The notes: generated by a model from the sequence alone, not told the origin. DNA of 64,000 nucleotides from Dudresnaya verticillata (GCA_977862235.1 OZ374565.1:1612001-1676000), one strand, 5' to 3'; positions 2,172-64,000 are shown, numbered from the stretch's first letter. A program made the numbers and translations.

Positions 2172-2241
2172 ATGGCCCTGCATTTCTCGTGTGCTGCATC
2201 AACCTGAGAGTATACTTTACTGGTTGTAGCTGTTTCTCGTA

Positions 2242-5200
2242 TCAAGAGCCGGCATACCTAACTAACAACGGCGATTCTCTGATTCTCTTCTGGACGAGCT
2301 GCGGTACACGTCTCTTCGTAAGAGCTTCGAATTCGACCATTACGGTCGCGACGCCGACAGTACCAGTCCATGGCTGCTTAGTCGCTGAGAATATGGATGC
2401 CTTGTCCTTTCCGTCCCAAGCACCCTTACCGTCATAAGCCTCGTACCATCTTATATACAGCTCAGTAGCCTTTCCCGTAGCGTCTTGCACAACATCTAGA
2501 ATCTGTCCAATCCAAAATGGGCATCGTGCGGTGGCGTTCTCCCTCACAACGGCAACGAAGTAGTTCTTCGTGTACTGCAGGTCTGAAGAGGGGGTCACAG
2601 TCTCCTCCTCACCGTCATCCCCTTCCGGTACGTACTCCAGCGCCGCTCTTCCGCTGTACTTTCCCCTTGTCTCAAATATGCGTCCCATATCCCAATGAAA
2701 CGTTTCCAGCCTATCTCTGTACACGTGGCCCCGCAATTCCTGCAGCTCCCTCATCTTTCCCGTGTCATTCACACGTGTCTCTTCAGAACGAAACCTGTCG
2801 TTGACTTCCTTCAAATCTGGCGGCGATTTGACCACTGTTGCTGGAGTCTTGCCTATAGTATCTCTACCGGCACCACCGAATGCGGCGCCGGGATGAGACC
2901 CCAAAGGACCAGGAAGATCGGTCGGATTTCGTAGAAAACGGCCGAACGTAGAACGGACCTGCGCGCCGGTAGCAAGCCAGGTAGAGCGGGAGCGCGCAGA
3001 CGAAGTCGCGGCCAAAATCCTGGATGAGCAGTGGAAAATGGCCGAGCTGGGGAAAGGTTGCAAAACTTTACTCCCAACCTCTGGCGGGACGGCTTCGTAC
3101 CTATTCTGGCCGAGCCGTGGTCTGTGGCCGTCTAAGTAGGCCCAAAATCGGCCACTAGAGCTAATCTAGATCTATTCTACAGTTAGTGGCAGAGGTTACT
3201 CCCCGTCGGCCATAATATCTACTTGTGTTCCGGTGTCGGGCCAATATTGTACCCTTACCAGACTAAACCAAGTACTTGTTCGTTAGTGGTTGGCCAAATG
3301 AGTTAGATTTTCCCTTGATTTTTCTGCTGTCTTCTGCTTGATTTCATGCGCGGCCAAATCCAATTTCCTTTCCGCACTTGCTTCCAGATCCGATCGCACC
3401 GATCATACGTGTACAGCGAGCCACGTGGTGCGCTTAGGTGTCGTCGGTGGCCACGTGTGACACACGTGTACACTTGTTGGACACGTGTGCCCCTTGCGCA
3501 GTGTTCACCGTCGTCCGCTCGGCCGCACTCTCGTCGGTTGGCCAAACGTATCTTTCTGATTGGGCTGACTGTCCCACTTGGCCCGGCCGGTTACGCCCGT
3601 TTTGGAGGCCCCTTGGCGTTGCACCACATTGCCAAGGTCAGGAGGGGATAGTATGAACTCCTTATGCTCTCCTCCTGTCTGCAACGGAACCCAGTCATCC
3701 GCGCATGTCATTCTCAATTGACAGCCTGTCACGAAAGCTGCAACAGATTCTGCCTCTTCCGTCGCAGCTGGACCCACACGGTGAAATCTGAAATAGCGAT
3801 AGGTCGTGAATGCCTCGTGAATGCCTCAACATTACCAATGCATCCTTCCTGTCGGCACAGGCCTGAGAAATTCACAATTTGAAGCATGCGACTGACAACT
3901 GGTTCTGGACTGTACGACTGCCGAAGCTCTTCCATCAATTCAGTCATTGTGACTGCGTCCCGAACTTTAAGCCGGCGTGCCGTGCAGGAAAAGGCCTGAT
4001 CTATATCTGTGTGAGTGTGCCCGACGGGCAGGAAAGACACGAAGACCCCTTGGAACACACCCCATGCAACGAGACTCTCCAGGTATGAGAACAAAAAGGT
4101 ATTTTTGTTCTCTCTCGAACAGTTGTCGACTTGTAGAAATAAAGTCCCTTGTAGCTCTCCTCTGGACTGCTTGTCCGAAAGTGTTCTGTGCAACGCCTCG
4201 ATAATGTGGTTCGCGCCGGTCTCGAACTCACCGGTCATTGTGTACAAGTGCAGACGCTTCTCAGCCCTGTGTTCAAGCACCCCAATAAGTTTCGCTTTCA
4301 TGGCATGCCCAATGCTGGCTTTGGACGACACCACAAAATGGGGAAGTCCAAATGCGGACTGATCAGCACCATCCACTATGAGGGAGCAATACTCTTGCGG
4401 CGATAGTATCGCCTTCTCACATTTTTCTGATATTCACGTCTCTCTGCCTGTATGAATTTCAAGTGAATGTTGCGCCGCTCATGCAGGTGTTCAGTGCCTG
4501 CTCCAGAGGTCCCTGCCTGAGCAAGTCGCTCGCGAATGAGTTCGCATTCGCTGCACTTTGCAAATCGGTGTGTCTTTCGCACCTTAATGCGGGAGCAACT
4601 GTGTTTCCATACAAAGTAAAAGTAACTCTGACACGGAATTTCCCTGTTTCTGTACATCCTGGTGTGGTCCAATTTGAATATGTCATACACAACTGATTTC
4701 TGAAAGTAGGGGAAGTGTGACTCCCCGTTATCGGGCATTGGTTCAGCAGTGCTGTCTGCAAGACGTTCAAGGAAGCAAATGATAGCATCCTGCTGATGGG
4801 ATGAGGTATCACGCCTCGCATTGTTTGGGAGCTGCAGCTTCCGGGACTGCTTCGTGCCTTTTACAGAGGTCTGTAAGTCACGGGAGAATCCAAAGGCCTG
4901 CTCCAGAAAGTTGTAACAGACAAGCAGGCGGTTGAAAAAGTATTTCATCTTTCTCGTGTCCAACAGATTGCGAAGATACGTTCGCCTTGCTTCTACGTTC
5001 ATTCCGGCAATTCTGCGCGCCTCCGCCTTTAAGTACACTTGCTCCACACTTTGGAAGCATTTGTTCCCGATGCAGCATCTCATTGACTGCGTGTTTGCGG
5101 CTTCCAGATCTTTGAAGAGGTTCTTACGTCTCTTCTGAAGACTTCCTCTCCCACTGAATGCCTGCTGCTTTCTCTTCCTGTAAGTATACTTTCGCTTCGT

Positions 5201-7873: not shown

Positions 7874-8887
7874 GGGGAGCTCCCCGTTAGAAGTTTGTAA
7901 GCCCAAAACGGTTTTTGGACATGGTCGTGCGATAATGTCGGAGCCGTCACCATACGGAGGTCACCAAACCACATGAACAACGGCTAATTACGATTGCAAG
8001 CGCATGGCTACTGCCCATGAGGCGGAGATCCTGATTCTTGTGCATCATCTAACTATAATGCCTGCCTTATTCTTTTTTTCGAGAGATGACAACGCACGTG
8101 TCTATTAACTGTAGGTATAGTAAGCGTCTGTAGAACACCTGGATTTGTGTTTGTGCTTCCTCTCCCACACGAACTTGTGGCTTCTCTCTCATGCGAATAC
8201 GCACGAGACGAACCAGAGTGCAAACATGCCTATTCGTTCCAGAAACTTGTGACGTGGGACGGTTGAAGTGGAGCGAGGAGCAAGTGCTCTCCGCAGTGGT
8301 ATTGTAAACTGAAGTTAACCTTCATAAATGAAAACGCAATTTCATGACTGAGCCACATACTTTGAACTGACTGCAGATACTGGTTGCGAACTTTGTGCGA
8401 GTGCTATTGCTCAGAGGGAAAGAATAGCGAGATTGACCTGTTGGCATCACCTTGTAAGGCAATGGTTCAATGCCGGTCCCTGGTGCAGTCTGGAGCTTAT
8501 TGAACGAGAATGAGCCATCAAGGATTCAAGCCATCAAGAAGGATTCAGCGTGTCAGTACGAACAAAGCGAGTCTCGAGAAAAGAACAATAAAGTGCACCG
8601 GCACTGCAGGGCCTACAGATCATCTCTAGAAGTGTCGCTGCCAGCTGTATTGCGATCGCCAACAGTCATGAGGTTCTCCTCGTGGTCACCTAATGCATGA
8701 AGACAGATAAAGACCGCCGCGCTTGGCACATACCCACTTCGCAAGATCTTCCTCATGAATTGTGCGTCCCTCTCGACGGTGCATGTACAAGCGGTCGACC
8801 AGCTCCCTCTCGATGACGTCCAGCACGTCGGCACAGGCCAGGGAAATGGTTTTTGCACTCGCGCTTGCACTCTAGACTGCTGACTGC

Positions 8888-9538
8888 TGTGGTGAAGTGA
8901 GATTCGGCATCCGAAACGGTGGAAATGCATATAGTGTGGCCTGAACCGTTGTGGGATTTTTGCACGTGTATCCGTGTCCGTTTTGGGTGCATTGTTGTGT
9001 GCTGGCGTACATTGCTGTGTAGCAGTGGAGCGCACCAACCGAAGCGGAGTATTTGTAGTATTTATTCTTTATTTTTAGTGAGTATCTGTACAGTGTGTAG
9101 AGTAGTGCGCCAGCCAATGAGAATGCTGCGCATGTCCGTGTTGGAGATTGGGACCAGCAGGGCCGATTCCACCATGGGTCCAGACCACTAGGGTCTGGAC
9201 CTCACGGACCAGACCGCTCGGTGCCACCCTGACTTGTATATCAGGGCGGCACCGCAGCGGCTCCTATGGTAAACGGGTAAGCAACCTTAGCCCAATCCTT
9301 TACGGTTTTCCCCGCGCCGAGCCCGTTGCGGTCTACCACCACCACCGTTACGGAGTCCGTTCCGGCACTTGTACCACCCCCTTGTCTGTTGCTTCCCAAT
9401 ATCCGTCTCGGTTAGCCGCTCGCTGTTCTCCCGTCTCGGTGCGAACTGCTCTACCACCCCGTAGAGGTAGTGTTGCTCTCGTCCGTTAAGGAAAGTCAGG
9501 CCAGCTGTCCGTCTCGGAGTTCGTGGGTTTTCACTACA
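8888..9538 (+). repeat. 5' LTR
   Basis: Direct repeat of 17401-18051; about six substitutions seen by eye (~99% identical). Confidence 0.95.
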
Positions 9539-9548
9539 CCACATCTTT

Positions 9549-9561
9549 TGGTCTCCCGAGC
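9549..9561 (+). other. Putative primer-binding site
   Basis: TGGTCTCCCGAGC lies 10 nt after the LTR. The TGG start is complementary to tRNA CCA, and the motif resembles the complement of a tRNA-Tyr-type 3' end (GGGAGACCA). Confidence 0.45.
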
Positions 9562-9691
9562 TAGAACACCGTCACGGTTGGAAGAAACAGCCGTCGAACT
9601 CCGCTACGGTAGGAATTCGGCTGTACCGCCAACCCGTTACGGAATATTGGATAGACAAGCAAGAACAACCGTTGTGTTCCGTTAAGGTATC

Positions 9692-12170
9692 ATGCAGAAC
9701 GAAGAACACGCAGACCCTCCCGTTACGGAACCTAAAGCGGGTGACACTACCCCCGCTGCGCGCAGTTTGCGCAGTGAAGGAGGTGAAATCCGTTCCGGAG
9801 TGGAGAACCCAGAAGACATCCTAAAGGGTGCTGCTGGTAAGGCTCCCCGGTCCCATGTCGGATCAGACGCCTCGAAGACAGCAGCTCCGCAACCCAAGCC
9901 GGAATCCCATCGGGTCCACTGGGTCCTGTCGGAGGTCCTTTCTAGGGCGTTAGAGCATCTCCGATTGGAAGTACAACCTGGAATGGTAAAAGAGGTGGAG
10001 ATATCCCTCTCGGGAACTGTTCCGTCTTTGGTTAATTCCTATCTGGAGCAGCACCTTCCTCGGATAGTGCAAGCTTTGATCCTACAGGAAAAGGTGGCCG
10101 CCGAGCTCGAGAGCCAGATTGCTCCCGGCATGGCAAGGCCTCCCGCTACGGAAGCTTTTACTGAGCAACCACCGTTACGGAATGACTTCCCGGTCGAGGG
10201 AAGAACGCAGCAGCCGCAACAATCCCCCGTTATGGGATTACAGCCGGGCACAGTACCCTCTGGGCCACTGCCACCGGCTCCCGTAACGGGTTCTCAACAT
10301 CAACAAGCCCCTACGGGACCAACACACACTCAGCCACCGTTACGGTATTCTCCTGGACACGTAGATGTGCCTACGCCAAGGCGCTATCAGCAAGAGCGCT
10401 ATACCGTTCCGGCTCGATCAGGTGGAGGCAGCGACCATCTCAGCGATGCGTCCAGCTCACCCCATCCGAGTCGGAGGACCGGTCGAGGTCGGCATAAACG
10501 AGATGCCCGACACTCCCGCTCTGACCCTCCCCGTCGGTCGCACATGGGCGACCACACCCAGCGACGACGCCGCCAATCCGGTACGGAATCCAATGAGAGC
10601 AGCTCAGAATATCCAACACCGCCGTCGCAAGAGGAGAAACAGAAGATCGCGGAAACGCGAAAAATGGCATGACTCCTCTACCTCTACGGATTCAGACTCA
10701 GAGAGTTCTTCCGTAACGGATAGAGAGAATAGGCACCGCGCCAGAAAACACGGTGCCAAATCCGGAAAGGTTAAGGTAATCCGGCCACTACATGACAAGT
10801 TTGTCAAGTCGCTGGACTACCGCACCTACCGATTGGATAAGAGGAGTAAGACCTACGGCTCCAAGTTCTCACAGAACATGAGCCGTATACGGAAGAAACT
10901 CGACGTCCAAATGTCGTCCCATACATTCTATGGGACGGACCCTATTACCGTCTTGGGATTTCTCGCTAAGTTCCGTGACGGTTGTAACATCAACGGCATC
11001 GCCGAAGGGGTTGCCGTCTGGTGCTTCCAGTTTTTCCTTAAAGGACATGCCGAAGCCCTTCTACAGGCTAGGCTTGCTGGAGGTACCATGGCGGTTGACG
11101 TGGAGCAGTCCGAGATGCTCCGCACATATCCCGAGGTGGTGAACTTTTTATTGAGAACCTACGCTACGGATGAAGTGCTTGCTGAAGCCTATACGGATGT
11201 CAGCAACTTCAGGCAAACATCCGCCATGACGGAAGAGCAGTTCTCGAACCAGCTCTGGGCCAAGGCTCTCCGTTGCGGTACAGTATTTTCCGATCGGGCA
11301 TTGAAGTCACTGTTCGTTGAAGGACTCCTACCGGGTACTCGTCAACAGATGAGAAATTATCTAGCGACGCATTCCCAGTTGGATTACCAGGCCATCACTC
11401 GCTATGCGACTGGCCTGGGTCAGTCCCATCGGGCAGCTCGACGCCAAACCGTTCCGGCTCACGTCTTTGATGGGCACACTAAAGCGCGCCCGTCTAAGGT
11501 GTTGTCGCTGGATTCCGTATCGGATGTATACTATGAGCCGCAAGGGAATCTTTCCGCTACGGATAATCAAGTGCTAGCCGTCGAGGGAGGCCACGGTGCC
11601 GCTACGGGTACGAGCACGGGGGTTACCTTTTCTACCACGTACTCCTCGCCCCCGCAAAGCGTCCACCCTACTCCGCCCAGGATGCCTCGCGCGCAAGGTC
11701 CCCCCTATGGTGGATCTCGCCCGGCTCCTGGCCCCCAACAGCAGCCGGGTCACCGTTACGGAAATAATGCCCACGATGGGCGAGGACAGCAGCAACAAGC
11801 ACCTCCGCTACGGGATGAGTCGGATCCTCGGGTCCGACGCCTTTACGGAAGTGGTAACTGTCGCATCTGCCTTTCGTCAGAGCACGTTGTTTGCCTATGG
11901 ATACAAGACTCCGATCGGGTTAGGCTTATGGAAGAGCGCGAGCGCAACTTCCAGAAGCACTACCCTGTAGGTCGCAGGTTCGTAGTAGGAACCAGTTCGA
12001 ATCCGCAAGGGAATCGGGGCAGACCGCAAACGCCCCCTCCCCAACGGAATGCCCCGATACTATCGGTGGAGGACCATGACGGAGTGGAACTCGCAGAATT
12101 GCGCGAGCCCATGGAGGCGGATCCGACTGGTGCAACCTTGAATTCGGAAAACTCAAGGGGGGATGCGTAA
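9692..12170 (+). pseudogene. gag: Gypsy gag (frameshifted near 10610-10670)
   Basis: Capsid-like region (FYGTDPITVLGFLAKF, FRQTSAMTEEQF, FVEGLLP), degenerate knuckle CRICLSSEHVVC and the SEN end motif. It is spread over two overlapping ORFs, 9692-10672 and 10365-12170. Confidence 0.8.
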
Positions 12171-15100
12171 GGGCGCCGCCATCCCCGCCTCACGGCGTTC
12201 CACCTCTCGCGAGTGTGGACCCGCCAGGGGATCGGCGAGATACCGTTACGGAACTCCCATTGGCTTATCAGACTAATGATACTATCTTCTTTATGCAACA
12301 TCAAAATTACAAGATGCAAATTACCGTGGGACGGACAGATAGCGTGATGCTTCCTTTAATCTCCGTCTTGGACTCTGGCGCTGGGCCCAATCTCATTAGT
12401 GCCAGGCGCCTTCCGCGCCAATGGCTCCCACTCATACGCCCAGCAGCCAGTCCTCCATTACGGGATGCGTCTAATCGCGCTGTACGCCCTCTTGGTCAGA
12501 TCCAACTTTTCGTCCGTATCGGAGAGCTCCGTGCTCGCGTTCATTTTCTAGTGGTCGCGAACTTGGCGGCTCCCTGTATTCTGGGAACTACCTTCATCGA
12601 CCGCCACGTGAAGGAAATCCTCCCTCCGTTACGGAAAGTTGTTTTTCATCATTACCCACCGGTATCCCTTGTCGGTCAAGCCAAAATTCCGAAGACGGGA
12701 ATCACTGCCACCCTACAGCCCTCACCTCTCTCTACCGCCACGGTTTCTCAGAAAATTCGTTTAGCAAAATCTACCCTTATTCCCCCTATGACTCAAACCA
12801 CCGTAACGGTTAATACCCCCACGGGTGGGTTATGTTTTCTACAAAATCATCCTAAGCCGGCTTTTAAACACCTTACGTTAATGGCTAATGGTATTATGGA
12901 TGTTGTACCTAACAAACCGTTTCGGATCTGGGTCTCCAATTTTTCTAACAAGCCGTACGGTTACCCAAATCTACTGTCGTGGGCCTCGCTACTGCTGCCC
13001 CTTCTGCTATTTTTACCGTTGACGATATACCTCCATTTAAGGAGGGGGGAGGAATTATTCAATCATTTAATTCTAACCCTACCTCCGAAAAGGCCAGCAG
13101 CAACTCCCCTCACGACAAGGAAATAAGCAAACCCGTAACGGAAAATGCAAATATTACCGACTGGAAGGATCAAGTCCAGATTGGCACAGAAGAAGCATCG
13201 CTCCGCAAACGGATTTTAACCCTACTCGAGGAATATAAGTCGATGTGGAGTGGCGATCTTGGCAACATTACAGCTGCCAAGCACCGCATCGAGTTAACTC
13301 CCGGAACGAAGCCAGTATATCAAGCCCCATACCGTGCCGGACATAAGCAGCGAGATCTCGAAAAGACAGAGATTGATCGCATGCTTTCCGCTAAGGTAAT
13401 TGAACCAGCCTCATCGGAGTGGGCCAGCCCCGTGGTTTTCGTTCCAAAAAAGGACGGCACCATGCGGTTCTGTGTTGACTATAGAAGGCTCAATTCCGTA
13501 ACGGTTAGGGACTCATATCCCTTGCCCAGGATGGATGAGTGCATAGATTCCCTTGGGGAAGCTACTGTATTTACCACCCTGGATTGCAATAGCGGATATT
13601 GGCAAGTCGAGATTCCGGAAGAGGAAAGGGACAAAACTACCTTCACTAGCCATTTTGGCTTATACAGTTTTCGGAGAATGCCATTCGGATTGAAAAATGC
13701 ACCGGCAACCTTCCAACGGGCAGTGGATATAATCCTTTCTACGGTTAAATGGCAATTTGCCCTCGTCTACCTAGATGATGTAATTGTCTACTCAAAAACC
13801 GTTACGGAACATTTCCACCACTTGAAGGAAGTCCTTACGCTTTTACGATCCGCTGGGGTAACGTTGAAATTGTCAAAGTGTGACTTCTTCAACGCGTCTG
13901 TACAATACCTGGGGTATGTTATCCGTCCCGGATAATTAGAAGTGGATAATCGGAATATCCAATCCGTTAAGGTCGCGAAGCCGCCGACTAACCAAACGGA
14001 ATTGCGATCCTTCTTGGGAATGTGCAACGTGTATCGTCGCTTTGTACCCAACTTCGCTCGGATTTCAGCACCGCTAAATAAGAAAACCGGCAAGGGCTCA
14101 CCCTTTGAGTTTGGAATATTATCCGATACGGAATATGAAGCCTTCGAGGAACTGAAGAGACGCCTTATCTCTCCACCTATATTGGCTCTACCCCGTCACG
14201 GATATAAATATACGTTGGACACTGACGCATGTGACCACCAAGTCGGCTGTGTCCTTCTGCAGGAACAACCGAATGGCGATCACCTCCCTATCGGATATTG
14301 GAGCCGAAGCCTCACCGATGCGGAGAAAAATTATACGACAACCGAAAAGGAATGCTTAGCCGTGGTCTGGAGCATGTTAACACTCCGACCCTACCTTTAC
14401 GGTGATAAGTTTATTCTCCGAACGGATCACGATGCTCTGCGGTGGATCCTGAACCTCGCAGACTCATCTGGCCGCCTAGCCAGGTGGAGGCTCCGCCTAT
14501 CGGAATTTGAATTCGAGGTGCAATACCGTCCTGGAATTAAGCATCAACTCGCCGATGGGATGTCGCGACTCCGAACGGATGGCGGTGACGATAGACCTTT
14601 GGATGAAGAGATACCCTGCTTTGTCGCCGAAAACACCGTCGACGGATTATATGAGCATGGAGTATATTTAACCGATTGGGCCACATCACAAGAAACCGCT
14701 ACGGAAAATAACGTAATATGCGCCGTGGAGCCCGCCAGTGGGAGTGCATCCGCCTCCCCTAGCCCGACGCAATACCGTCACGGTTTACTGTAATCCAAGA
14801 ATCCGACGTTAAGGATGAGACAATTACCAGGGAGGAGTTCCTTGAAGCGCAAGCCCGAGACCCTTTCTGTCGTCTCAAAGCCGATACGGTAGGCTCCCCT
14901 GGATCACAGTTTGACTATGGTCGTAACGGATTCTTGGTACGCAAGTCCCAATTGGATGGTGCTCTGCAGAAGGTGGTGCCAAGCGAACTCCGTAGACGGG
15001 TATTGTATTTATCCCACTACACCCTGATGTCGGGTCACCCAGGCGGAATTAAGATGTATTATACACTCCGACAGGATTATTATTGGCCTCATATGGCCAA

Positions 15101-16460
15101 CGATGTATTTGAATCCGTTCGGACGTGTCGCTCCTGCGTGAAGACAAAGGGAACCCGCTTTCGGAACCAAAGATTTATGAAGCTTTTCCCCGCTAGCGGA
15201 CCTTTGGAGTTTGTCGCTATCGACATTGTCGGGCCACTTCCGAAGACAAAAAGGGGTTATGTCTACGTTTTGGTAATAACCGATCGGTTTTCTAAGCTGA
15301 CGCGCTGTATTCCGTTACGGACAACAACAGCCGTTGTGGTGGCTAACGCCTTTCTGGACTTTTGGGTGTACGCCTACGGCGCACCCCAATTTGTCCTAAC
15401 CGATAACGGACCGCAGTTTACTGCTAACTTCTTCGACGCGGTGTGTTCCTTACTCGGAGTCAGGCACCTGCTCACCGCTGCCTACCATCCGCAGACAAAT
15501 GGGCAAGCTGAGCGATTTAATAAGGCAATCGCTCAGCGTTTGCGCCATTACGTTGAGGATCATCACTCCGATTGGGATCTGTACCTGCTACCGTTGACTT
15601 ATGCGTACAACATGCAGGTACACCGTGTTACGGAAACAACGCCATTTGATTTGGTGCTGACACGCCGCCCATCGGATATCGTTGTACGAGGGGCTCCTGT
15701 CGAGCATCAAGAAACCGTTACGGAAGGGCGTATGACCCCGGTGCTACAGAAGCGGAACACCATGCGCCGTTTACGGTATGCGCTCCAGACAGCGCGCACT
15801 AAGCAAACAGTGGCTCAGCAAAAAGCCAAGGCACTGTTTGACCGTAAGGTGCGCTTTAGGCCTATAATCCGTAACGGAGATCAAGTCTACGTCGACAGGC
15901 CGCCCCATAACTTGCGGCCTGCCGAACGCCGTGAACGGGACCGATTGGAAGGCAAGCCGGATGATGTAGGCGAGGTGGCTCAGGAAATGAAGAAACTCCT
16001 TCCGAGAGCCACGGGGCCTTATGAAGTGGAATCCGCAACGGAACATGTTGTTACAATCCGAAAGGAAGGGGTATTGACCCCCGTAAGTATCGATCGCATC
16101 ACGAAGGTTCCGATCGGAGTTGCGGTTCAGCCGGCACCCTTGATAGTGCCGCCTGTCACGCCATCAACCGTCTACGGAGAAGTAGTGCTACATCCAGAAG
16201 GTACTACAGTAGTACCTCCTTCTGAAGGTACTACTCCTTCCGCAACGGAACCACTGCAAGCCGATACGGAATATGTGATCGACAAGATTGTCGGTCACCG
16301 CGACGAACCTACTGGGATGACGTACAAAGTCCGCTGGTATGGTTACCCTCCGGATCAGGATACCTACGAACCCGCCGAAGTTTCACCGCTTCCGCGGCAC
16401 TCTTCCGTCACGGAACTCGCTCTGGACACCTCAGCAGAGCCGTTACGGTGTTCGTCGTAG
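12146..16460 (+). pseudogene. pol: Gypsy pol: protease, RT, RNase H, integrase, chromodomain
   Basis: Motifs LDSGAG; RFCVDYRRLN, MPFGLKNAPATFQ, YLDD; DTDAC..GCVLLQ, TDH; HHCC plus DIVGP/TDNG/GQAE; EYVIDKIVGHR...YKVRWYGY. Lesions: frameshifts near 12955 and 14770, and a TAA at 13933. Confidence 0.95.
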
Positions 16461-17387
16461 CCATTCTGGGAGGGGCACGCCTTTTTCTTGCGATGAGCGG
16501 CCGCCCTAGCACGTTTGGGCCAAGAACGGCCCCTTCCGCGACGGTACAGGAAAATTCCTCGGTCTCATTATTCTTCTCAGAGTCCCGGGGTATATATTAA
16601 TATTGATGTTAATATTAATATTTTCAATATATTATTATATTAAAAATAATATATTAACACCCGTCGCGGGTTGGGTTCATCTCAAGAGGGAGAGGTTGGT
16701 GGTGTGTCTCATAAGGGCAGAAGTGAAGGTATTCGCCTGTAACCGCTACGGATTCCTGAAACGCGCCGCCTGCGCCGGTTTGTGGCGTACCTAGCCCCCC
16801 AACTTCTCGCCACCCAAGTCGGAACAACTTCCGTCAGGAGGTTGCGGGTGTGAAGTACCGTCATCCGATCGGAGTACGAATCGTCCGTTGTGGATATGGG
16901 AGCGTAATCGATGGCGTGTTCGAGCAGACCGTCGGGGAAACTTATTCCGGTACGGTGAGAGCAACACTCTCCAAGAGTGTTTGCTCCTTTACGTGTGGTA
17001 GGACCCCCATGTCGGATTTTTGCAAATGAGGCTGTCTGTGAGGTGCCTGGATTGCAATCCCGTTACGGTGAATCTGGCGTCTGCAGCGCTGACACACTGG
17101 AGGAACCCGTTGCGCATGTTTAATGAGGCAGAAGACTGGCGACCAGCCTAGGCAAGAAATCCTTGCGGATGGCGCGCGACACTCGCGTCAAGCGCGTTTT
17201 GGTTATTCTCCGTGACGGAAGTCCTGGTATTGGAGGTGCGTGGGGTATCCCAACGCATCGATGCAAACCGTGACGGCAGTAGGGACGTTGATGAGAGACC
17301 TGGAAAAGCTTTTCGAATCCGTTGACGGTGCGTCGGACCCAAGCCGCAACTTCTTGAAGGTGGGCGCACGAGGACGTGGCGCCATTT

Positions 17388-17398
17388 AAGGAGGGGGG
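17388..17398 (+). other. Polypurine tract
   Basis: AAGGAGGGGGG two bases before the 3' LTR. Confidence 0.85.
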
Positions 17399-17400
17399 TC

Positions 17401-18051
17401 TGTGGTGAAGTGAGATTCGGCATCCGAAACGGTGGAAATGCATATAGTGTGGCCTGAACCGTTGTGGGATTTGTGCACGTGTATCCGTGTCGGTTTTGGG
17501 TGCATTGTTGTGTGCTGGCGTACATTGCTGTGTAGCAGTGGAGCGCACCAACCGAAGCGGAGTATTTGTAGTATTTATTCTTTATTTTTAGTGAGTATCT
17601 GTACAGTGTGTAGAGTAGCGCGCCAGCCAATGAGAATGCTGCGCATGTCCGTGTCGGAGATTGGGACCAGCAGGGCCGATTCCACCATGGGTCCAGACCA
17701 CTAGGGTCTGGACCTCACGGACCGGACCGCTCGGTACCACCCTGACTTGTATATCAGGGCGGCACCGCAGCGGCTCCTATGGTAAACGGGTAAGCAACCT
17801 TAGCCCAATCCTTTACGGTTTTCCCCGCGCCGAGCCCGTTGCGGTCTACCACCACCACCGTTACGGAGTCCGTTCCGGCACTTGTACCACCCCCTTGTCT
17901 GTTGCTTCCCAATATCCGTCTCGGTTAGCCGCTCGCTGTTCTCCCGTCTCGGTGCGAACTGCTCTACCACCCCGTAGAGGTAGTGTTGCTCTCGTCCGTT
18001 AAGGAAAGTCAGGCCAGCTGTCCGTCTCGGAGTTCGTGGGTTTTCACTACA
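17401..18051 (+). repeat. 3' LTR
   Basis: Direct repeat of 8888-9538. Confidence 0.95.
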
Positions 18052-19692
18052 CTGCCCCTCCTGCGGAATCAGACGCAGCTTGCCAAGAAACTCGACCAAG
18101 TCGGTTGACTTCATCCAGCACGCGTGCTGCAACGTCTGCTTGCAGAGGGATTCAACTAGATCTAGCACTTGCAGATGCATGAGGTCGGAGGGCTGCAGCT
18201 CGTTGATGGCAGCGGCGGCGGACCTTGATACCGAGTTGCAGGTCTCGCAGCAGATGTACTTGACGTCAGATGGGTTTCCGCTTGCGTCCATTGCCCTCGT
18301 TGAGAGCGCATTGGTTCGGTGCGGGAGAAGGAAGAGGAGCGCGATGGTGGTGATATCAATTGGTGTTGTGAGTGACATTTTTGGACAGGCCAGGTGTGGA
18401 GACAGGGCAGAAGTTTCTTGAGATGTGTTTCGGGGTGCTAGCCGAGATGGTTGCGGGTAAGAACAGAACAGTGCACCAGCGTCATAGTTGCAGGCGCGCG
18501 CAACAAGAGGTGACTGCCGCGGTTGCACGGCTGGGGGTGTGGTTGGACGTCAGGTCATAGGAGCAGGGTAAGAGCAGTACTGCACGTGGTGGGCTTTCCG
18601 GAAGCAGGACGGTAAGCAGGCAGGCAAACACAACGGCGGTATTACGCAGCGGAGAGGAAGGGGAGTGGAGGAGGATACCGTGAGCGATGGATTCGCGGAG
18701 CGGGAGTCGTCGCGGCGAGGGTAAGGGCGTTTGTGAGGCAGTGTGTTGTGGCAGGCGTATTTGTGTCCACATTCTGGGCATTCAGGTCGTGAGCTCGCAG
18801 CGCCGAGGCCAGATAGATTGTGGAGTTTGCGGGCTCTCAGGACCAGTTCCCCGATACTGATATTGCATTTTGGGCTTCTGCGTTGCCGTGAAGCACAATA
18901 TCTGTTCTCATAGCAATGTGACTTGGCCGCATTCAGAAGCTGTAAAGGTGTTGACGGCGGTCCAATGGAAATACCCTTTTACAAGCTTATTCAATATCAT
19001 TGGACAGAAAATTTATACAGGTTTTTCAGCGCGCAATTTGCCACATCAAATGAACAGCTATTTGGCCCGGCGCTCTCGCCCCACCTGTTCCCTGATACTG
19101 ATATTGCACCCACAGGTGTTGACACCTCCCACCCCCGAGAACCTGTTCCTGGTAAATTGACCGCCGCGCCCCCCGCTGGCACGCCGCTGGCAACGGTGTG
19201 CCAATACTCACCGAAACAGTGTGTGGCATGCTATTTTACTCGCAGTATCAGCACCTGGCCAGGCCGGCCTCAACTTCAAAGCCCGGCCAAGTCGCCTGGG
19301 ACAACGAGCAGCATGCCCTAATTGACTTTGTTACATCTCGCCCTGCAGGTCCGCTGAAACCTGCATTCTACCAATTCCAACTGTACGACCTGTGCTAAGA
19401 ATAGTTCTGATGGAGACTGTCCACACCCGTTGAACAATCCACGTGACCTCCCGTGCCATCTCAGAATTTGCGGCACATCCATGTCGTACTCCCGCCGTCC
19501 AGTGTGTCGAAAGCCCGTATGGTGTCAGTCGAAAACGGCACCCTGCAAACATGAGCTGGGGACGTAAAGAATTTCTTGCGGAAGGTTTTCTGAACAGAAT
19601 CTGGACAACTCGTCGGACATGCAGTACCCCTTTCCGTACTCTTTCAAGGAGAGCGGTTTTCACGTGCACAGTGAGTCTTTCTCTCGCACACC

Positions 19693-22600
19693 ATGTCGAA
19701 GCGCAAGAAGCGGAGCAGGGGGTCAAGTGAGCCCTTGAGGAAGGATGACATGGCACAGGCACTGTTTGGAGATGTCATGGAGGGGTCTACCAACATTCGA
19801 ATAGACCCCAGGTCCTGTGTTCCGATGACTGATATAAGGGACAGCTCGAGATCCGGTGTTGAGAGGCTCAAGAAGATTTTCAGGGGTGGTGCGACGAGGA
19901 GCGCTAACTACAACAACGGGTACATTGCCGGTTCTGATGCGCCCATACTGGCTCGCCTAACAGGTCCCTTCAGGAGTTTCATTTTTGAGTTTCTACCAGC
20001 TAAACGGAATGCGGATGGGACAGAGTATACAGAGAAACAGGTGAAAGAAGAGGCCTCCAGTCGGTCGGAGTGGTTCGGAGTTGTTGATGGCATGCATCGA
20101 CTTATCGCCATTATGGAGCTAATCGATGAAGACCGGGAGACATGGAAGGGGTTTGCTTTGACTGCCACTGTGCTTAAAGGGGGGCACAACATCCAGATTC
20201 TGAAGCAACTGGCTCGTCATCAGAACAGAAAGCACGACTCCAGCTTTTTTGTAGAGACCACGTTTTACGATCAGATATGCGGTCTGAGGAAAGAGGCAGA
20301 CCGTCTCGAAGCCAGTAATGGGAAGATTCCGACTGCGACGGCAGTTGCCGAAGCATATGATGGATGCAGTCACCTATCGGAAAACACTATCAAACAGACA
20401 TCGGCAACCGTTCTTCGTCTTGACCGTCGCGTTATCGATGTAGTTGGGAAGATAGTGAAGGAGGAGGTCCCTGAACTAGCAACTATGCAACTGTTGACTG
20501 CTTCCGGAAAGGCCATAGACTCAAATGTTGCGATGCAGAATCTGGATTGCAGAGTATACAGACGCTTCATTCACGTCAGTTCCATCAAGTCTTCCAAGGC
20601 CTTTATGAATGCAGGCAGCTCTGACAACGGCATTACTGTGCAAATAGCTACCCTGTACAGGCTTCGAGAGGTGTCAAGGACACACAATTTCAAACCTGTT
20701 TCGGCCAAACACACACAAGAGCAATTCGTGAAAGCTTCAGCCGCCCTTTCCGAGACTCGGAAATTTGAAGCGATGAGGGAGAGGACAGAATGGCCGTCAG
20801 GCATGAGTACATTAAGAGAAAACCTGTTACGCACTACGAAGCTGGACGTCGAGGTCATCATGAATCGAGGTAATGACCGTACACTGTTGAAAACAATAGT
20901 TGAGATGTACAGAGAGTGTTGTCCGGAAGAGGCCCCAGTGAAGTTGCAGAAGTACAAAGATCTGCAAACTGTGATGGATTCGACAGAAGGCAGACGTGAT
21001 GACGCTGTCATGACCCGCCCGGGTTACAATGAATGTGGAGCAAAAGATTCTGACGGTCAACAGAATTTGGACTGCACGTTGTCACCGCAGGTGGACGCTA
21101 CCGGAATCTCTAACGACGACGAGGTTTTGGACTTAGTAACATCAACCAATTCGAAAAGGGAAGAAGGTCGCGAACCAGCAGAATCTGGACAGGCACCGGT
21201 CCAGAACGCAGACCCTACAGCTGCATGTGCAGCCAAAGACCATTCTGTACCGGAAAAGAGTCCCACAGACCACATTATATCAACTGTGTCATCAAAGCAG
21301 TCAGTTCGCCTCAACATGGGTACTAAGCCTGTGCCGGTGGAGGACGGATCGCTTTCTGTTCCAATAGATTATCTTGCGGAAATGAAACTGACATGCTTTC
21401 AGATGACATGGCAGAGCTACGAAAGTACCGTAAGGAAGGAAGGTGACAAACGATTCGATTTAATCCTCACAGATCCACCATACGGTACACCGAAATCGCA
21501 GTCTAAGTCGGGGAGGTCATTCGATAATTACCTCAGCGAGGAAGACATTAAGAAGATAGTTGAGTTCTCGAGGCGCGTACTTGTAGCAGGGGGGTGGTTG
21601 TTTGTTTTCACGTCATTCCTAAACTTCAGTGTATTCCACGATGCTCTGAAGAAGGCACAATTCATGTGCCCAGCATAACCATTCGTATTCTCCAAAGACC
21701 CCAAGACCATGCAGGAACATCGGGGGAGCGATATGCCCCAGAACTGTGTGGAAATAGCCGTCATGGCGCGTGCCCCAGGTCAGCATGGCGGAGGGTTCTC
21801 GCTCGACCTTAGGAGCGAGTATAACTGCATTACCTCCCCAGAAAAGCGGAAATTCGCGTGCATGTCCTCTCTACCAACACCGAAACACAAGTTGCTACGC
21901 CCAGGCACCAAGTCCCCAGTTCTGGTCGAAGAGAAGTCTCCCGAAGTACTTGTGGAGATAATGACAACATTCTGTCCGGAGGGCGGGTCAGTTCTGGATA
22001 TGCCCAGCGGAACCATGACGACTGGGATTGCAGCTGTCAGAACAGATCGTCGGTGTACACTAATCGAATCACAGGTCGAAACTTTCAAGCTGGGGGCTGA
22101 ACGTTTGCGTAGGCTTGCCACGGAAGCATATGAAATGAAGACAGGTCGTAAACGCTTGGAATCATGTGCTCATGACGAACTGAATGGTATCGGTGAGGCA
22201 GCAAGAGGTAGTGTTGTCAAAACAGATTCTGTTCAACCAACAAACCATTCCGTAACGAGGAAGGGACCTCAAATGTCCCATCTGACGACACCGTCCGAGC
22301 ACGTATTGGATGACCCCGAAGAGAGTATCGAGAAGCACGGCAGGAGTGAAGACATAGTTGTAGGAAGTGTGGAGCTGAATGAAAAGTACAGGAGAAGGAA
22401 AACACCTGAACCTTGTGCAATGCCCAAGGCCGGAGACAGAGTCACGCTTCTTGCAGATGATAAGGAAGTGGGGGAGGCCGTGTTGCATCCTGAAAAGACT
22501 CCAGGAGGGAACTGGAATGAACGCGTGCACGGCCACGATCTGTCAGAATCCGCCAAACCAGGGGAGCATCTTGTGGTCGTCTACAGTTTGAAGGTCATGG

Positions 22601-22725
22601 CGGAGTATGAGCTAAGTTCGTATTTGTATATATTCAAGGGAGTAGAGGACCCTCCTGCCAATCTCAAGGGCCTAAAAAGCTTGTTGTTCTCGTGGGACTT
22701 GCACAACATGAAGAAGATTGGGTAG
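19693..22725 (+). pseudogene. ParB-like/HTH + beta-class N6A/N4C DNA methyltransferase fusion (~1010 codons, one in-frame TAA at 21676-21678)
   Basis: N-terminal basic NLS-like MSKRKKR; ParB/Srx-like IR..S..GVERL...G...PIL...VVDGMHRLIA; FDLILTDPPYG (motif IV); RRVLVAGG; EKS..VL..IM..F...GGSVLDMPSGTMTTG.AA...R....IE (motif I region). ORFs 19693 and 21709 are in the same frame. Confidence 0.88.
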
Positions 22726-23755: not shown

Positions 23756-23945
23756 CTTTAGAGATAGAAAAGTGGTGGCCTTCTCCCATGAGCACAGCAG
23801 TGCGCTTCATTCCATTTGGCGGCCTACAATCGGGGATGTGCCCCATTGAAGTATGGCATGGTCCTCAGCTGCGGCGCAATAAACGCGGCGCAGACAACAG
23901 AATGCAATGAGGTCAGGCTGGCGTTGTGCAGAACCGCAAGGGAAA

Positions 23946-25081
23946 TCGACGCCTGTAGCGTCAGTCTACGCCACAAGTTAAGTCCGAACCGCGGGTGCGC
24001 AAGTGGCTTAGCTACCTGGAAGGGTACCAGGTCGGACGGGTAGTGGGCCCAGTTGTGAGGACGGGTCAGAATGGGGGTGACCATGCCGCTCGAGAGCGGG
24101 GTAGGGGTGAGGGAGGCGTGTCGGGGGACTGCTGGGAAGGGCCGACCATGCGTTCGAATGCAGCAACTTGATGTGGGCGTGTCAGAATGCGGCCGGGCGC
24201 GGTGCGCAGGACCGCGGGGAAGGGTGAGGGAGGCGTGTCGGGGGACTGCTGGGAAGGGCTGACCATGCGCCCGAATGCAGCAGCTTGATGTGGACGTGTG
24301 AGATTGCGGCCGGGCGCGGTGCGCAGGAACGCGGGGAAGGGTGAGGGAGGCGTGTAGGGGGACTGCTGGGCGGGGCTGAGCATGCGTCAGAATGCGGCAA
24401 CGTGATGTGGACGTGTGAGATTGCGGCCCGGCGCGGCGAGCGGGGAGGGGTGACGGCGAGGTGTCGGTGAACGGCAGGGAGCGTGAGACAGAGTGCGGTC
24501 ACAGGCCGGACTGGGGCGGGGAGCGGCACTACGGGTCTGGGAGGGGGTGGGGAAGCGCGCCTCATTACGCGCAACGCAGAAGCAGAGCGCGTGCGCACGC
24601 GCCAGAATGCGGAATGTGTGTTCCAGTAGCAGCACCAGGAAGGGTGATGGTGGGAGTGGCTGTCGGACGTGAGGAGGTGGCCGAGCGCGCGTCGGAATGC
24701 CGTGGGAAGCCAAGTCCGAGCACGTCGGAATGCGGTGAGAAGCCAAGTCCGAGCGCGTCGGAATGCGGCGGGAAGTCGCCAGAATGCGGTGTGCGGTCGG
24801 GGGGCGGGGGTGCGGGCGGCGGGGCGGGCCAGAATCAATTTCTGGAGAATTTTTAATTGGAACTTTTCGGAAAATCACAACTTTCGGGAACTTTCGACCC
24901 CGGGGGGGCCCATATGCCGGAGCCCATAACTGCAAAACTATTTGCGTTTGCTCCGATCTGTTTGCACCACTATTCTCAGGGTAGCGCCCCCTTTCCAACG
25001 CGCTATCAAACTCCGGGATTCAAGGACCCTCAAAAAATTCTGTTCTGTTTTGGAAATTCTGTAGCCGGCGAAATTAGTGTT
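23946..25081 (-). repeat. Right long TIR (~1135 bp) with internal tandem expansions
   Basis: Inverted copy of the left TIR. A 117-bp unit occurs three times (starts ~24105, 24222, 24339) versus once on the left, and a ~33-bp unit three times versus twice. Confidence 0.9.
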
Positions 25082-26791: not shown

Positions 26792-26921
26792 AACATAAAA
26801 ACAGGAGGCATGGCATGAATCGACGGGGGCTTCCAGTCTGAAAAGAAATCAGGGCTTCCACCTTCCATTTTTTTTCTGACTGGAGCCCCCGTCGATTCAT
26901 ACCATGCCTCCTGTTTTTGTT
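26792..26921. repeat. Long imperfect hairpin (~50-bp arms, ~20-nt loop)
   Basis: AAAAACAGGAGGCATGGCATGAATCGACGGGG...CCAGTC pairs with GACTGG...CCCCGTCGATTCATACCATGCCTCCTGTTTTT. Confidence 0.85.
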
Positions 26922-62616: not shown

Positions 62617-63884
62617 ATGACTGATCCCACTCCGCTCCCGCTGAGCAATGCATCTACCCCTTCAGTCGCTGAATCTTTCAACTCAGAGGCTGAACTCATT
62701 TGGCAGCTATTGGACCGTGAAAGTGTCCTCCCGGACTTAGTCTCGTACTGGAAAGGTAATAACGCGGTTTCTCTCCGCGAACAGATAATTCCGCCGCATG
62801 ATCCTTCCTCCGGTCCGATGCCTTTTGGATTTGCTTACTTCATTCTCAAGGACCTATACACGCCTCATGCCTCCCGAACGTAGAGCAAGCCGTGTATCGA
62901 AGTGCATATCGAAGGGTTCCCTCAAAGACTACCACCAGACTTCGGAATCGATTCTTCACCCGTTCCGGATTTTCTACTGCAATCGGCAACGTACCGGTAC
63001 TCTTCGCAAGAAAACATTACAATGTATTCATGATGAATGGATATGACCTGTACCGAGACTCTGACGATAAACCTATACATGGCTGTAGTATAGCTGTCAG
63101 CACACTATCAGCATCGGCTGTAAGGTATGCTGGCAGCGCCGCACTGCAATGGTGCACACGATGACGCCCGCTGGCAAGTCGTGGTTGGGCAGCGTGCCCT
63201 TAGTTTTTTCGTTGAATTAGTAGCGGTCGACCGCATTGCTGCCGGCAGCGGCCGCGGGCCGTGCCGCACACGGCTCGCCCCTGTGACGCTCTCCGGCATC
63301 GAGCCGTTGAGAGGGCCGCTGCCCGTTACGCCCCGCGCGCGCCCACGGGTAACCGTTACCCGGACGTGTCGACACGTGTATGGGCGCGCGCTCGCACACC
63401 TCCCGCGTTGGTGTTGTGGGGCGCACCTACTGTAGAAGTAGTCGTAGTGCACATAGTGTAGGGTATTTAAGACCGTCGGCCATCGACGGCTCAGTAAACC
63501 GGGCAAGCAACAGCTCGCGCTGAAGCTTGCCCCCAGCCTTTTCGGGTTCGATCCCTTTTCCTTACGCCAGCGGGCGGTTTCCCTTTTCCCCTTGCCTCGC
63601 TAGGCTTCCCCCTTTCCTTTTCCTTTCCGTCGGCTTCGTGCCGCCCTTCAACAGGGACGCTGGGATCCGGCCGCTGCCTACCAGCGTACGGTACGCCCCG
63701 TTCGCGCTCCGGCATCGACGCCGTCGATCCGCACCTGCGGGGCGCACGCGGCCGACACCGCTCTACCAACCCCAACAGCTAACCATCGGCGGTTCTGTGT
63801 GGCGGCTTCGGACCAGCATGTATCAGACGTCGGATCGACCCGACGTCTATACTACAATGGCGACGAAGACATTGTCGATTGTGA
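62617..63884 (+). pseudogene. Decayed ORF interrupted by two LTR insertions
   Basis: The frame YDLYRDSDDKPIHG continues as DEDIVDCD after removal of 63084-63856 and one TSD copy. It is then cut by the LTR at 63885. Confidence 0.4.
63084..63856. mobile_element. Solo LTR (773 bp)
   Basis: Perfect 10-bp terminal inverted repeat TGTAGTATAG / CTATACTACA with 5-bp TSD ATGGC (63079-63083, 63857-63861). Confidence 0.88.
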
Positions 63885-64000
63885 TATAGTGAAAACCCGC
63901 GAACTCCGCAACGGACAGCTGGCCTGACTTTCCTGTGTTGTAAACGCGTTTGATGACAAACTGCACCTCCGGACCGTTCGTAGTCCGGTAGGTAGCCGCT
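63885..64000 (-). mobile_element. 3' end of an LTR related to the 8888-18051 Gypsy family, reverse orientation, runs off window
   Basis: TATAGTGAAAACCCGCGAACTCCGCAACGGACAGCTGGCCTGACTTTCCT closely matches the reverse complement of the Gypsy LTR end. Confidence 0.8.

What the first reader, a model, noticed from the sequence alone, without database searches (positions are those of the whole stretch)
8888..18051. Gypsy element saturated with an everted CCG-N3-CGG motif (commonest CCGTTACGG/CCGTAACGG)
Seen: by eye I count roughly 55-60 CCGNNNCGG sites, nine per LTR (8911, 9039, 9252, 9323, 9345, 9357, 9403, 9431, 9509). About 40 more lie through the UTRs, gag and pol (e.g. 9601, 10172, 10281, 10711, 11753, 12243, 12801, 13799, 14881, 15312, 16261, 16441). 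A base-composition estimate gives about 3. The sites occur in non-coding DNA and in different codon phases (PLR, TVTE, ADTE), so protein constraint does not explain them. The related LTR at the window end also keeps one (~63907). Inference: a dispersed binding code for a dimeric factor (CGG half-sites recall Zn2Cys6 proteins), analogous to sequence-specific anti-silencing of plant VANDAL elements, or a packaging or RNA-structure signal.
Basis: partly seen in the sequence, partly recalled or inferred. Interest (0 to 1): 0.78.

Follow-up and report, generated by a model that had tools for sequence, protein, structure and literature searches.

The report
Retrotransposon saturated with a palindromic code
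A Gypsy retrotransposon, probably from a red seaweed, carries one short gapped palindrome 73 times along its whole length, even inside its genes, about twelve times more than chance; the repeats are likely binding sites for a two-part DNA-binding protein that would keep the element from being silenced, but that protein is not identified.

Summary
Confirmed and stronger than reported. The element (8888-18051) holds 73 CCG-N3-CGG sites. One LTR plus the interior holds 62, against 4 in dinucleotide and 18 in 6-mer-preserving shuffles; the ORFs hold 42 against 5.7 in codon shuffles. Of 65 places where the protein allows the motif, 41 carry it. The flanking 55 kb is not enriched.

It is a recently inserted, now broken chromodomain Gypsy element whose integrase groups with Chondrus and Agarophyton proteins. 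Flank preferences are mirror-symmetric but do not covary, G-U pairs are not favoured, and 2- and 4-base spacers are also enriched. This fits a double-stranded DNA site for a homodimer better than an RNA hairpin. The same test did detect true dispersed hairpins in other Gypsy loci (L100, L001, L338), so an RNA packaging signal remains the main rival.

None of 120 related loci, 14 further contigs or 60 unrelated LTR elements shows this enrichment. No DNA from the element's own clade was available. No reader protein was found, and the clade's antisense-ORF domain was not detected here. The anti-silencing role is inferred only. Ten literature searches found no report.

The parts
8888..18051 (+). 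Ty3/Gypsy LTR retrotransposon with chromodomain integrase; 73 CCG-N3-CGG sites
8888..9543 (+). 5' LTR (656 bp, TG...CA); 9 sites (8911, 9039, 9252, 9323, 9345, 9357, 9403, 9431, 9509). Two sites intact in the 3' LTR are broken here by single changes at 8979 and 9142
9549..9560 (+). Primer-binding-site-like stretch starting TGG, 5 nt after the LTR; the tRNA was not tested (none in the window)
9252..9790 (.). Densest cluster: 12 sites in 540 bp across the LTR's 3' part, the leader and the gag start
9692..12170 (+). gag, broken by a frame change near 10640-10670. N-terminal part Pro/Gln/Ser-rich; 10740-11459 folds like an Arc/retroviral capsid; 18 sites in 9692-12170
12170..16460 (+). pol in the order PR-RT-RNase H-integrase-chromodomain. 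Frame breaks near 12940 and 14760-14830, a stop at 13933-13935, and a chromodomain matching only profile positions 1-37 of 53; 25 sites in 12171-16460
16591..16660 (.). 93% A+T patch between the pol end and the antisense frame; likely a terminator for convergent transcripts (inferred)
16709..17385 (-). Possible decayed antisense frame (about 225 codons over three frames, ATG beside the polypurine tract). No homologue found; does not match the clade's antisense domain
17388..17398 (+). Polypurine tract
17401..18051 (+). 3' LTR (651 bp, 6 differences from the 5' LTR, lacks its last 5 bases); 11 sites
8884..8887 (.). Target-site duplication CTGC, repeated at 18052-18055
11290..16872 (.). Secondary perfect palindrome CCGATCGG at 11290, 11911, 15280, 16110, 16865; none in the rest of the window
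63880..63934 (-). End of a related LTR (55 nt, 91% alike). Keeps the CCG/CGG arms of the homologous site at 63906 while 2 of its 5 differences fall in the 3-base spacer

Best explanation
This Gypsy element carries CCG-N3-CGG at about two-thirds of the positions its proteins allow, and the sites are likely an additive binding code on the double-stranded DNA for a homodimeric protein, host- or family-encoded and not identified, that would coat the element and keep it expressed against host silencing. Shown: the enrichment, its restriction to the element, its independence from protein sequence, the mirror-symmetric preferences (A/T-rich flanks and spacer, outer CC/GG strict, inner G/C relaxed, spacer 3 with 2 and 4 tolerated), and unrelated flanks around the sites.
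For: (1) Mirror symmetry without pairing. Positions -1/+1, -2/+2 and 3/5 each depart from background (p 6e-4 to 4e-15) and match their mirrored complement (p 0.27, 0.82, 0.26). Yet left and right flanks do not covary: 24 vs 22.2 and 15 vs 19.3 Watson-Crick pairs among 62 sites.
(2) Constrained folding is no better than with swapped flanks (z +1.7), whereas the same test gives z -7.4 for L100 and -5.8 for L001. Hairpin probability is 0.22, against 0.26 for 22 control G/C stems.
(3) G-U-compatible variants are not favoured: TCG 2, CTG 1; TGG 12 vs AGG 11 and GGG 10. Compensatory stems are near chance except CCA/TGG 7 vs 2.7 and CCC/GGG 6 vs 2.4.
(4) CCG-N2-CGG (10 vs 2.7) and CCG-N4-CGG (12 vs 2.7) stay enriched after masking, with A/T-rich spacers. 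A 2-base loop cannot close the inner G-C pair.
(5) Graded tolerance like a binding profile: inner-position variants 23 vs 7.4 and 32 vs 8.4; outer-position variants 2-7 vs 6-8.
(6) Density is highest in the LTRs and leader (14-20 per kb) and lowest in the integrase core (2.4 per kb).
(7) Motif-compatible peptides are 4.8-fold over shuffle in pol and 6-fold in integrase, so protein sequence has probably been bent towards the motif.
(8) Precedent: VANC binding depends on motif density (PMC5735166, passages). Red algae have DNA methylation, TE small RNAs and H3K27me3 on repeats (review PMC8566409, passages).
Against: No reader was found. The antisense-ORF domain present in at least 42 related ORF pieces is not detected in this element, and the short antisense frame has no homologue. 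There is no binding, methylation or expression data. The centre base is polar on the sense strand (T 33, A 13, p 0.005); stop avoidance explains 7 of the T's, but 26 vs 13 remain, and position -3 is also asymmetric (p 0.004). Relatives in the wider clade carry dispersed short palindromes that do look like RNA hairpins, and motif-free windows of this element fold slightly better than flanking DNA (z -0.38 vs -0.11). The element lacks the flanks' TpG/CpA excess, but relatives without the motif also have CpG o/e near 1, so this does not discriminate. In this copy the sites did not prevent decay: 2 of 6 LTR differences hit motif arms and 3 of 6 are CpG transitions. Only one full copy was seen.
Confidence: 0.45

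Rival explanations
1. The sites are many minimal RNA stem-loops, CC(G-UNA-C)GG, read by the element's own Gag to select and compact its RNA for packaging.
For: Dispersed sequence-specific hairpins exist in other Gypsy loci. L100 has 16 sites with centre C in 16 of 16 and covarying flanks. L338 has 22 sites with flank covariation z 6.8. L001 has 27 sites (z -5.8). L089 and L090 have a covarying inner pair, 14 of 25 and 18 of 25 vs about 6.5. Many members of the wider clade show a 1.3- to 2.3-fold generic excess of short palindromes at gaps 4-7. In the window, CC/GG spacing is flexible (N4 77, N5 87, N6 67 vs 41.5 after masking), the centre is T-biased on the sense strand, and the densest cluster lies over the leader. 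Isolated 13-mers fold at -1.9 kcal/mol on average. The concept is established for RNA viruses (PMC6281560, passages).
Against: No stem extension, no flank covariation and no G-U preference; hairpin probability equals controls on both strands. The commonest spacer gives the weakest hairpin in the energy model (-0.2 vs -1.4 kcal/mol). Mirror-symmetric flank preferences have no obvious reason on a single strand. No Rfam match.
Confidence: 0.27
2. The sites are double-stranded DNA sites, but they act on the unintegrated cDNA: integrase, Gag or a host protein coats, protects or tethers it on the way to integration.
For: Same symmetry evidence as the best explanation. Coverage of the whole length, longest gap 438 bp, suits a structural role. 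Selection at the cDNA stage would act directly on each new copy (inference).
Against: No DNA-binding domain beyond the standard integrase and chromodomain; the folded Gag part resembles capsid only. No clear 10-11 bp or nucleosome-scale periodicity. Higher density at the promoter end suits a transcriptional role.
Confidence: 0.12
3. A mutational or repair bias writes the sites without benefit, as modelled for cyanobacterial HIP1, for example methyltransferase-directed repair or template switching during reverse transcription.
For: All three reading frames are used and synonymous opportunities are near saturation, as for HIP1 (PMC4390886, abstract). Outer near-misses are slightly below expectation (16 vs 28 summed over four classes). 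A DPPY-type N6/N4 methyltransferase-like gene lies 1.6 kb downstream.
Against: The enrichment stops at the element's ends, and the region around the methyltransferase gene is not enriched. Template switching should perfect any palindrome, yet only CC/GG stems peak among 16 dinucleotide stems. Density follows coding constraint. For HIP1 itself, conservation argues for selection (PMC5861425, abstract).
Confidence: 0.1
4. Ordinary causes: codon or amino-acid bias, local tandem duplication, or base composition.
For: Some sites lie at conserved peptides such as PLR and YRAG. Three LTR sites share the TCT spacer.
Against: Codon shuffles give 5.7 vs 42. Relatives, including those with the same residues, never use the motif at 14 homologous positions (0 of 107 cells). 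Flank identity between sites equals random (6.02 vs 6.03 of 24). 6-mer-preserving shuffles reach at most 27.
Confidence: 0.02

Closest known systems
VANDAL/VANC sequence-specific anti-silencing (Arabidopsis MuDR-like DNA transposons; PMC5735166, passages)
   Same: A short motif at high density confined to one transposon, rare outside it; density proposed as the signal.
   Different: Here it is an LTR retrotransposon. The motif is a gapped palindrome, fills coding sequence, and has unrelated flanks rather than tandem arrays. No element-encoded factor was found and no methylation effect was tested.
Multiple dispersed packaging signals of RNA viruses and HBV (PMC6281560, passages)
   Same: Many degenerate copies of one motif across the whole genome, inside ORFs.
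   Different: Those are stem-loops with a strand-specific loop. The window's sites fail the stem-extension and covariation tests that L100, L338 and L001 pass.
Cyanobacterial HIP1 and alternate HIPs (PMC4390886 and PMC5861425, abstracts)
   Same: A G+C-rich palindrome over-represented by more than tenfold within and between ORFs.
   Different: HIP1 is genome-wide, ungapped and tied to known methyltransferases. This motif is gapped and confined to one element.
Retand antisense ORFs with the TRP28 domain (plant Gypsy; PMC11963269, passages)
   Same: The wider clade carries a long antisense ORF between pol and the 3' LTR, a candidate regulator.
   Different: The domain here has no Pfam or fold match, and it is not detected in the window's element. 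The passages read describe no dispersed target motif.
Zn2Cys6 everted sites (Leu3/Uga3 type) and papillomavirus E2 sites (recalled, from no call)
   Same: Everted CCG...CGG half-sites around a short spacer, read by a homodimer; E2 sites also prefer A/T-rich spacers.
   Different: Recalled spacers are 4 bases, not 3. No such protein was found in the element, and the host proteome was not available.

Membership tests
Ty3/Gypsy LTR retrotransposon (chromodomain-bearing) | Two direct LTRs with TG...CA ends and a target-site duplication | tested here: met
   99% identical over 653 nt; CTGC on both sides
Ty3/Gypsy LTR retrotransposon (chromodomain-bearing) | Order protease-RT-RNase H-integrase | tested here: met
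   RVT_1, RT_RNaseH, Integrase_H2C2 and rve in that order; the protease is recognised from the LDSGA motif upstream, without a Pfam hit
Ty3/Gypsy LTR retrotransposon (chromodomain-bearing) | Chromodomain at the integrase C-terminus | tested here: met
   PF00385 E 2.5e-8, profile positions 1-37 of 53
Ty3/Gypsy LTR retrotransposon (chromodomain-bearing) | Gag with capsid fold; primer-binding site and polypurine tract | tested here: met
   Model pLDDT 82; best Foldseek rows are Arc and retroviral capsids at E 0.007 or weaker; PBS-like and PPT stretches read directly
VANDAL/VANC-type anti-silencing system | Short motif at high density specific to the element | tested here: met
   7.3 per kb inside vs about 0.35 outside; not enriched in 120 + 14 + 60 other loci; close family members not available
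VANDAL/VANC-type anti-silencing system | Motifs mainly non-coding and spread as tandem repeats | tested here: not met
   42 of 62 sites are in ORFs; flank identity equals random
VANDAL/VANC-type anti-silencing system | Element-encoded sequence-specific factor | tested here: inconclusive
   No Pfam, homologue or profile match for the antisense frame; this copy is broken and the factor could be supplied in trans
VANDAL/VANC-type anti-silencing system | Binding causes loss of DNA methylation and derepression | not testable with these tools
   No methylome or expression data; no runs listed
Dispersed RNA packaging signals | Motif presented in a stem-loop with covarying stem | tested here: not met
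   z +1.7 and hairpin probability 0.22; positive controls z -7.4 and -5.8. A 2-3 bp protein-stabilised stem is not excluded
Dispersed RNA packaging signals | Strand-specific loop motif | tested here: inconclusive
   Centre T 33 vs A 13; 26 vs 13 without the phase where stops are avoided
Dispersed RNA packaging signals | Capsid or Gag binds the sites | not testable with these tools
   needs binding assays
HIP1-like iterated palindrome | Genome-wide over-representation | tested here: not met
   19 observed vs 14.1 expected in 54.8 kb of flanks; whole genome not held
HIP1-like iterated palindrome | Cognate DNA methyltransferase | tested here: inconclusive
   A weak N6_N4_Mtase gene lies nearby; its target is unknown and its surroundings are not enriched
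Zn2Cys6 binding site | A Zn2Cys6 protein that binds it | tested here: inconclusive
   No hit in the element's ORFs; host proteome not available

The most novel reading that the evidence does not exclude
Gypsy retrotransposons can write a family-specific self-recognition code over their whole length by point changes, strong enough to reshape Gag and Pol. In this red-algal family the code is a DNA dyad read by a dedicated dimeric anti-silencing factor, the first such system in an LTR retrotransposon. In other Gypsy families (L100, L338, L001, L089) the same role is filled by dispersed RNA stem-loops that act as packaging signals.
Probability: 0.3. Interest if true: 0.87.

Novelty: new variant of a known kind. 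Interest (0 to 1): 0.66.

Why it matters
How LTR retrotransposons stay active against host silencing, and how they pick their own nucleic acid out of the cell, are open questions. Sequence-specific anti-silencing is established for plant DNA transposons (PMC5735166), while antisense ORFs of Gypsy elements are only suspected regulators (PMC11963269). The counting test used here also turned up clear dispersed RNA stem-loop codes in other Gypsy elements, so it can be run across transposon libraries.

Tried and rejected
Data that could not be had:
- No whole genome is held, so there is no genome-wide density and no second copy.
- Sequencing runs: none was listed; this is no evidence.
- Viral contigs: no relative with RT as query; 4 distant loci with the integrase alignment; no match for an LTR-end pattern. 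A paired-motif pattern gave 120 viral loci selected by the motif itself; the one long locus rich in it, L192 (38 vs 7), is a 48-bp tandem array.
- The same kind of pattern in 5 MAGs gave only scattered matches.
- Small contigs nearest in identity (50-63%) were too short or not enriched.
- The large HMMER search never ran because the queue stayed full, so distant homologues of the antisense frame remain untested.

Searches for a reader protein:
- Window antisense frame: no hit among longer proteins (weak evidence); Atlas best score 0.83, a lead only.
- Clade antisense domain: no convincing Pfam hit; only its own two records in the protein search; no PDB sequence hit. The model has pLDDT 56, with no Foldseek match at E <= 0.001 in PDB or viral libraries and best VIA Z 3.7. 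Atlas scores were under 0.9. This shows neither a new fold nor a function.

Ideas rejected or downgraded:
- My early reading that relatives each carry their own DNA dyad code: several are hairpins or a generic palindrome excess. GGC-N4-GCC (L036, L051) and the outer flanks of CTC-N6-GAG show no covariation and stay undecided.
- Periodicity: nothing clear (amplitudes 0.04-0.13 vs about 0.07).
- Myb-type AACGG as the core: only 12 remain after masking, and many sites lack it.
- Lack of CpG decay as support for anti-silencing: not discriminating.
- My notebook said codon usage explains the centre asymmetry; one search shows T and A equal at GNN third positions (200 vs 192), so it does not.

Other blanks: Rfam and tRNA scans were empty. 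Earlier-findings look-ups returned nothing.
Full report
1. Observation. The window has 92 CCG-N3-CGG sites, 73 of them in 8888-18051. The other 54.8 kb holds 19 against 14.1 expected. To avoid counting the LTR twice I used one LTR plus the interior (8513 bp, 62 sites). Shuffles that keep 2-, 3-, 4-, 5- or 6-mers gave means of 4.0, 5.4, 5.8, 8.5 and 18.2, with a highest value of 27 in 200. In six stop-free coding segments there are 42 sites; synonymous-codon shuffles give 5.7, at most 13 in 1000. Of 65 positions at which the protein permits the motif, 41 carry it (5.6 expected); for CCGTNACGG it is 19 of 23 (1.2 expected), and three control patterns are at chance. Flanks of different sites are no more alike than random, so the sites are not tandem copies.

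2. The element. It has two LTRs (8888-9543 and 17401-18051, 6 differences in 651 bases), a CTGC target-site duplication, a PBS-like stretch at 9549 and a polypurine tract at 17388. Pfam finds RT, RNase H, integrase and a partial chromodomain in Gypsy order. A model of gag 10740-11459 (pLDDT 82) has Arc and retroviral capsids as its best, though weak, matches. The copy is young but broken at several places in gag and pol. The best named integrase hits are Chondrus crispus proteins at 57-61%. In a 58-row tree (30 selected loci offered, proteins P0001-P0025 plus named ones, short matches dropped) the window lies in a 27-row group with Chondrus and Agarophyton proteins at support 99/98. The host is therefore inferred to be a florideophyte red alga. 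None of the DNA loci in that tree falls inside this group.

3. Shape of the motif. The profile is roughly W-W-CCG-T-W-A-CGG-W-W. After masking the 62 sites, variants at the inner G or C are enriched (23 vs 7.4; 32 vs 8.4) while variants at the four outer positions are not (3, 2, 4, 7 vs 5.8, 6.0, 8.2, 8.0). CCG-N2-CGG and CCG-N4-CGG remain about fourfold enriched, with A/T-rich spacers. CCGATCGG occurs 5 times inside and never outside. Density is 14-20 per kb in LTRs and leader, 8-9 in the poorly conserved coding stretches and 2.4-5.4 in the enzyme and capsid cores. Peptides compatible with the strict motif are 4.8-fold over shuffle in pol, against 2.0 in proteins at least 55% identical and 0.8-1.4 in more distant ones; shared ancestry confounds that gradient. 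At 14 homologous positions, 10 relatives never have the motif (0 of 107 cells), even where the residues are the same. A related LTR end at 63880-63934 keeps the arms of one site while its spacer differs.

4. DNA or RNA. Preferences at -1/+1, -2/+2 and 3/5 are strong and mirror-symmetric, but the two sides do not covary and stems do not extend. G-U-compatible variants are not favoured, and the predicted hairpin probability (0.22) equals that of control stems (0.26) on both strands. The test has power: L100 (z -7.4, probability 0.79) and L001 (z -5.8) pass it, and L338 shows strong flank covariation. Against a pure DNA reading, the centre base is T 33 times and A 13 times on the sense strand, 26 to 13 outside the phase where stops are avoided. 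Position -3 is asymmetric, CC/GG spacing is flexible from 4 to 6, and motif-free windows fold slightly better than flanking DNA. I put DNA-level readings at about 0.6 in total and an RNA signal at about 0.27.

5. Relatives. Among 120 loci from three scans (about 100 retrotransposon-like, the rest bacterial integrase loci; capped scans, best 80 of 553 in the metagenome scan), none has CCG-N3-CGG among its top three enriched pairs. No locus with 6 or more sites exceeds 2.8-fold, against 11.7-fold here. Fourteen further contigs are also negative. In a panel of 60 unrelated LTR elements, taken from the 150 listed RT matches in handles G006, G008 and G010, five pass -log10 p 6 for some palindrome: four from tandem repeats and one (L338) from dispersed hairpins. 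None approaches the window's 42. Several members of the wider clade do carry other dispersed palindromes: CTC-N6-GAG in L089, L090 and L260 (18 of 54, 18 of 41 and 12 of 59 encodable positions; 2-3 expected), GGC-N5-GCC in L001 (14 of 32) but not in its sister L002 (2 of 18), and GGC-N4-GCC in L009, L036 and L048. Dispersed palindromic codes thus recur in this clade and differ between families, but the window's is the most extreme and does not behave like the hairpin cases.

6. Search for a reader. At least 42 ORF pieces from related loci share a domain encoded antisense between pol and the 3' LTR. It has no convincing Pfam, PDB or fold match. The window's pol-to-LTR stretch is only 940 bp and does not match that profile. 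It holds an A+T-rich patch and a possible decayed antisense frame beginning at 17385, without homologues. None is shown.

7. Mechanism. I commit to a dispersed double-stranded-DNA binding code for a homodimeric factor that keeps the element active (0.45). The enrichment, its limits and its symmetry are shown. Three of the six LTR differences are CpG transitions (p 0.045) and two hit motif arms (p 0.12). This is compatible with methylation of this copy after insertion and shows no protection of the sites. Rivals are RNA packaging hairpins (0.27), a cDNA-stage role (0.12) and a mutational or methyltransferase-linked origin like the HIP1 model (0.10; PMC4390886 and PMC5861425, abstracts).

8. Known systems and novelty. 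It is a member of Ty3/Gypsy. It is not a VANDAL/VANC system by definition (retroelement, coding sites, no tandem origin, no factor found), though it may work like one. It is not HIP1-like in extent and fails the stem-loop test for packaging signals. Ten full-text searches returned no listing that describes such a motif in an LTR retrotransposon or in red algae. The literal-motif search had 46 papers, of which 25 were listed; all matched only the plain 9-mer, in unrelated topics. Apart from the eight papers opened I saw only listings, the library lacks most subscription journals, and no supplements were read. I also saw the abstract of 10.64898/2026.08.24.746577 and passages of PMC13547354, PMC11963269 and PMC6281560; what I saw of them describes no such code in a retrotransposon.

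9. Verdict. Real, large and element-specific, and unexplained by composition, protein or duplication. The mechanism is open between a DNA and an RNA reader, and the evidence rests on one copy. New variant of a known kind; interest 0.66.

Noticed in passing
L100:949-12195 and L338:493-11634: Distant Gypsy elements (eukaryotic contigs filed in a bacterial MAG) with 16 and 22 dispersed sites around a GTTCAAC-like core. The centre C is strand-specific and the flanks covary strongly: clear dispersed RNA stem-loops, like viral packaging signals. L100 also carries a TatD nuclease ORF after pol.
   Followed up: partly
L089, L090, L260 (whole loci); L001; L009, L020, L036, L048, L051: Family-specific dispersed palindromes in the wider clade: CTC-N6-GAG (inner pair covaries in L089 and L090), GGC-N5-GCC with extended stems, and GGC-N4-GCC among many 4-base-gap stems. 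Also a 1.3- to 2.3-fold generic excess of short palindromes, much weaker in unrelated LTR elements (median 1.03).
   Followed up: partly
L001:7371-9716 (-), L089:7213-10233 (-), L020:4988-6979 (-) and about 40 other ORF pieces: A long antisense ORF between pol and the 3' LTR with a shared domain of about 170-210 residues, without Pfam, PDB or fold match.
   Followed up: partly
window 19693-22725 (+): A gene of about 1010 codons with one internal stop, carrying a DPPY-type N6/N4 DNA methyltransferase domain (Pfam E 2.6e-5 and 0.007 for the two halves). Its N-terminal part resembles ParB/Srx by eye (recalled, no hit).
   Followed up: partly
window 1302-2187 and 23930-25087: Long inverted arms (about 92% over 758 nt) 22 kb apart, with a 117-bp tandem unit, enclosing a DUF7869 ORF (3729-4433, -), the Gypsy element and the methyltransferase gene. 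Either a large DNA transposon or two opposed repeats.
   Followed up: no
window 18045-18055 vs 9532-9543 and 63880-63891: The 3' LTR stops 5 bases short of the end seen in the 5' LTR and in the related LTR, at an upstream CA; possibly an off-register integration cut.
   Followed up: partly
window 26797-26918: A 35-bp inverted repeat, 97% complementary, with 52 nt between the arms; MITE-like.
   Followed up: no
window 51602-51926 and 55285-55345: Repeated 61-nt units coding Lys/Cys-rich peptides, probably two paralogous genes.
   Followed up: no
window 45739-46150 and 35577-35720: Diverged tandem duplications with periods of about 205-219 bp and 38-53 bp.
   Followed up: no
window 10800-10860 (+), gag: A conserved Y-R-x-Y-R-L-like stretch at the start of the folded Gag region, shared across the clade (two of its positions are nearly invariant among 31 rows); basic, and a candidate nucleic-acid contact.
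   Followed up: no
L192:4001-4750: A viral contig with a 48-bp tandem array containing the same motif (38 sites in the locus).
   Followed up: no
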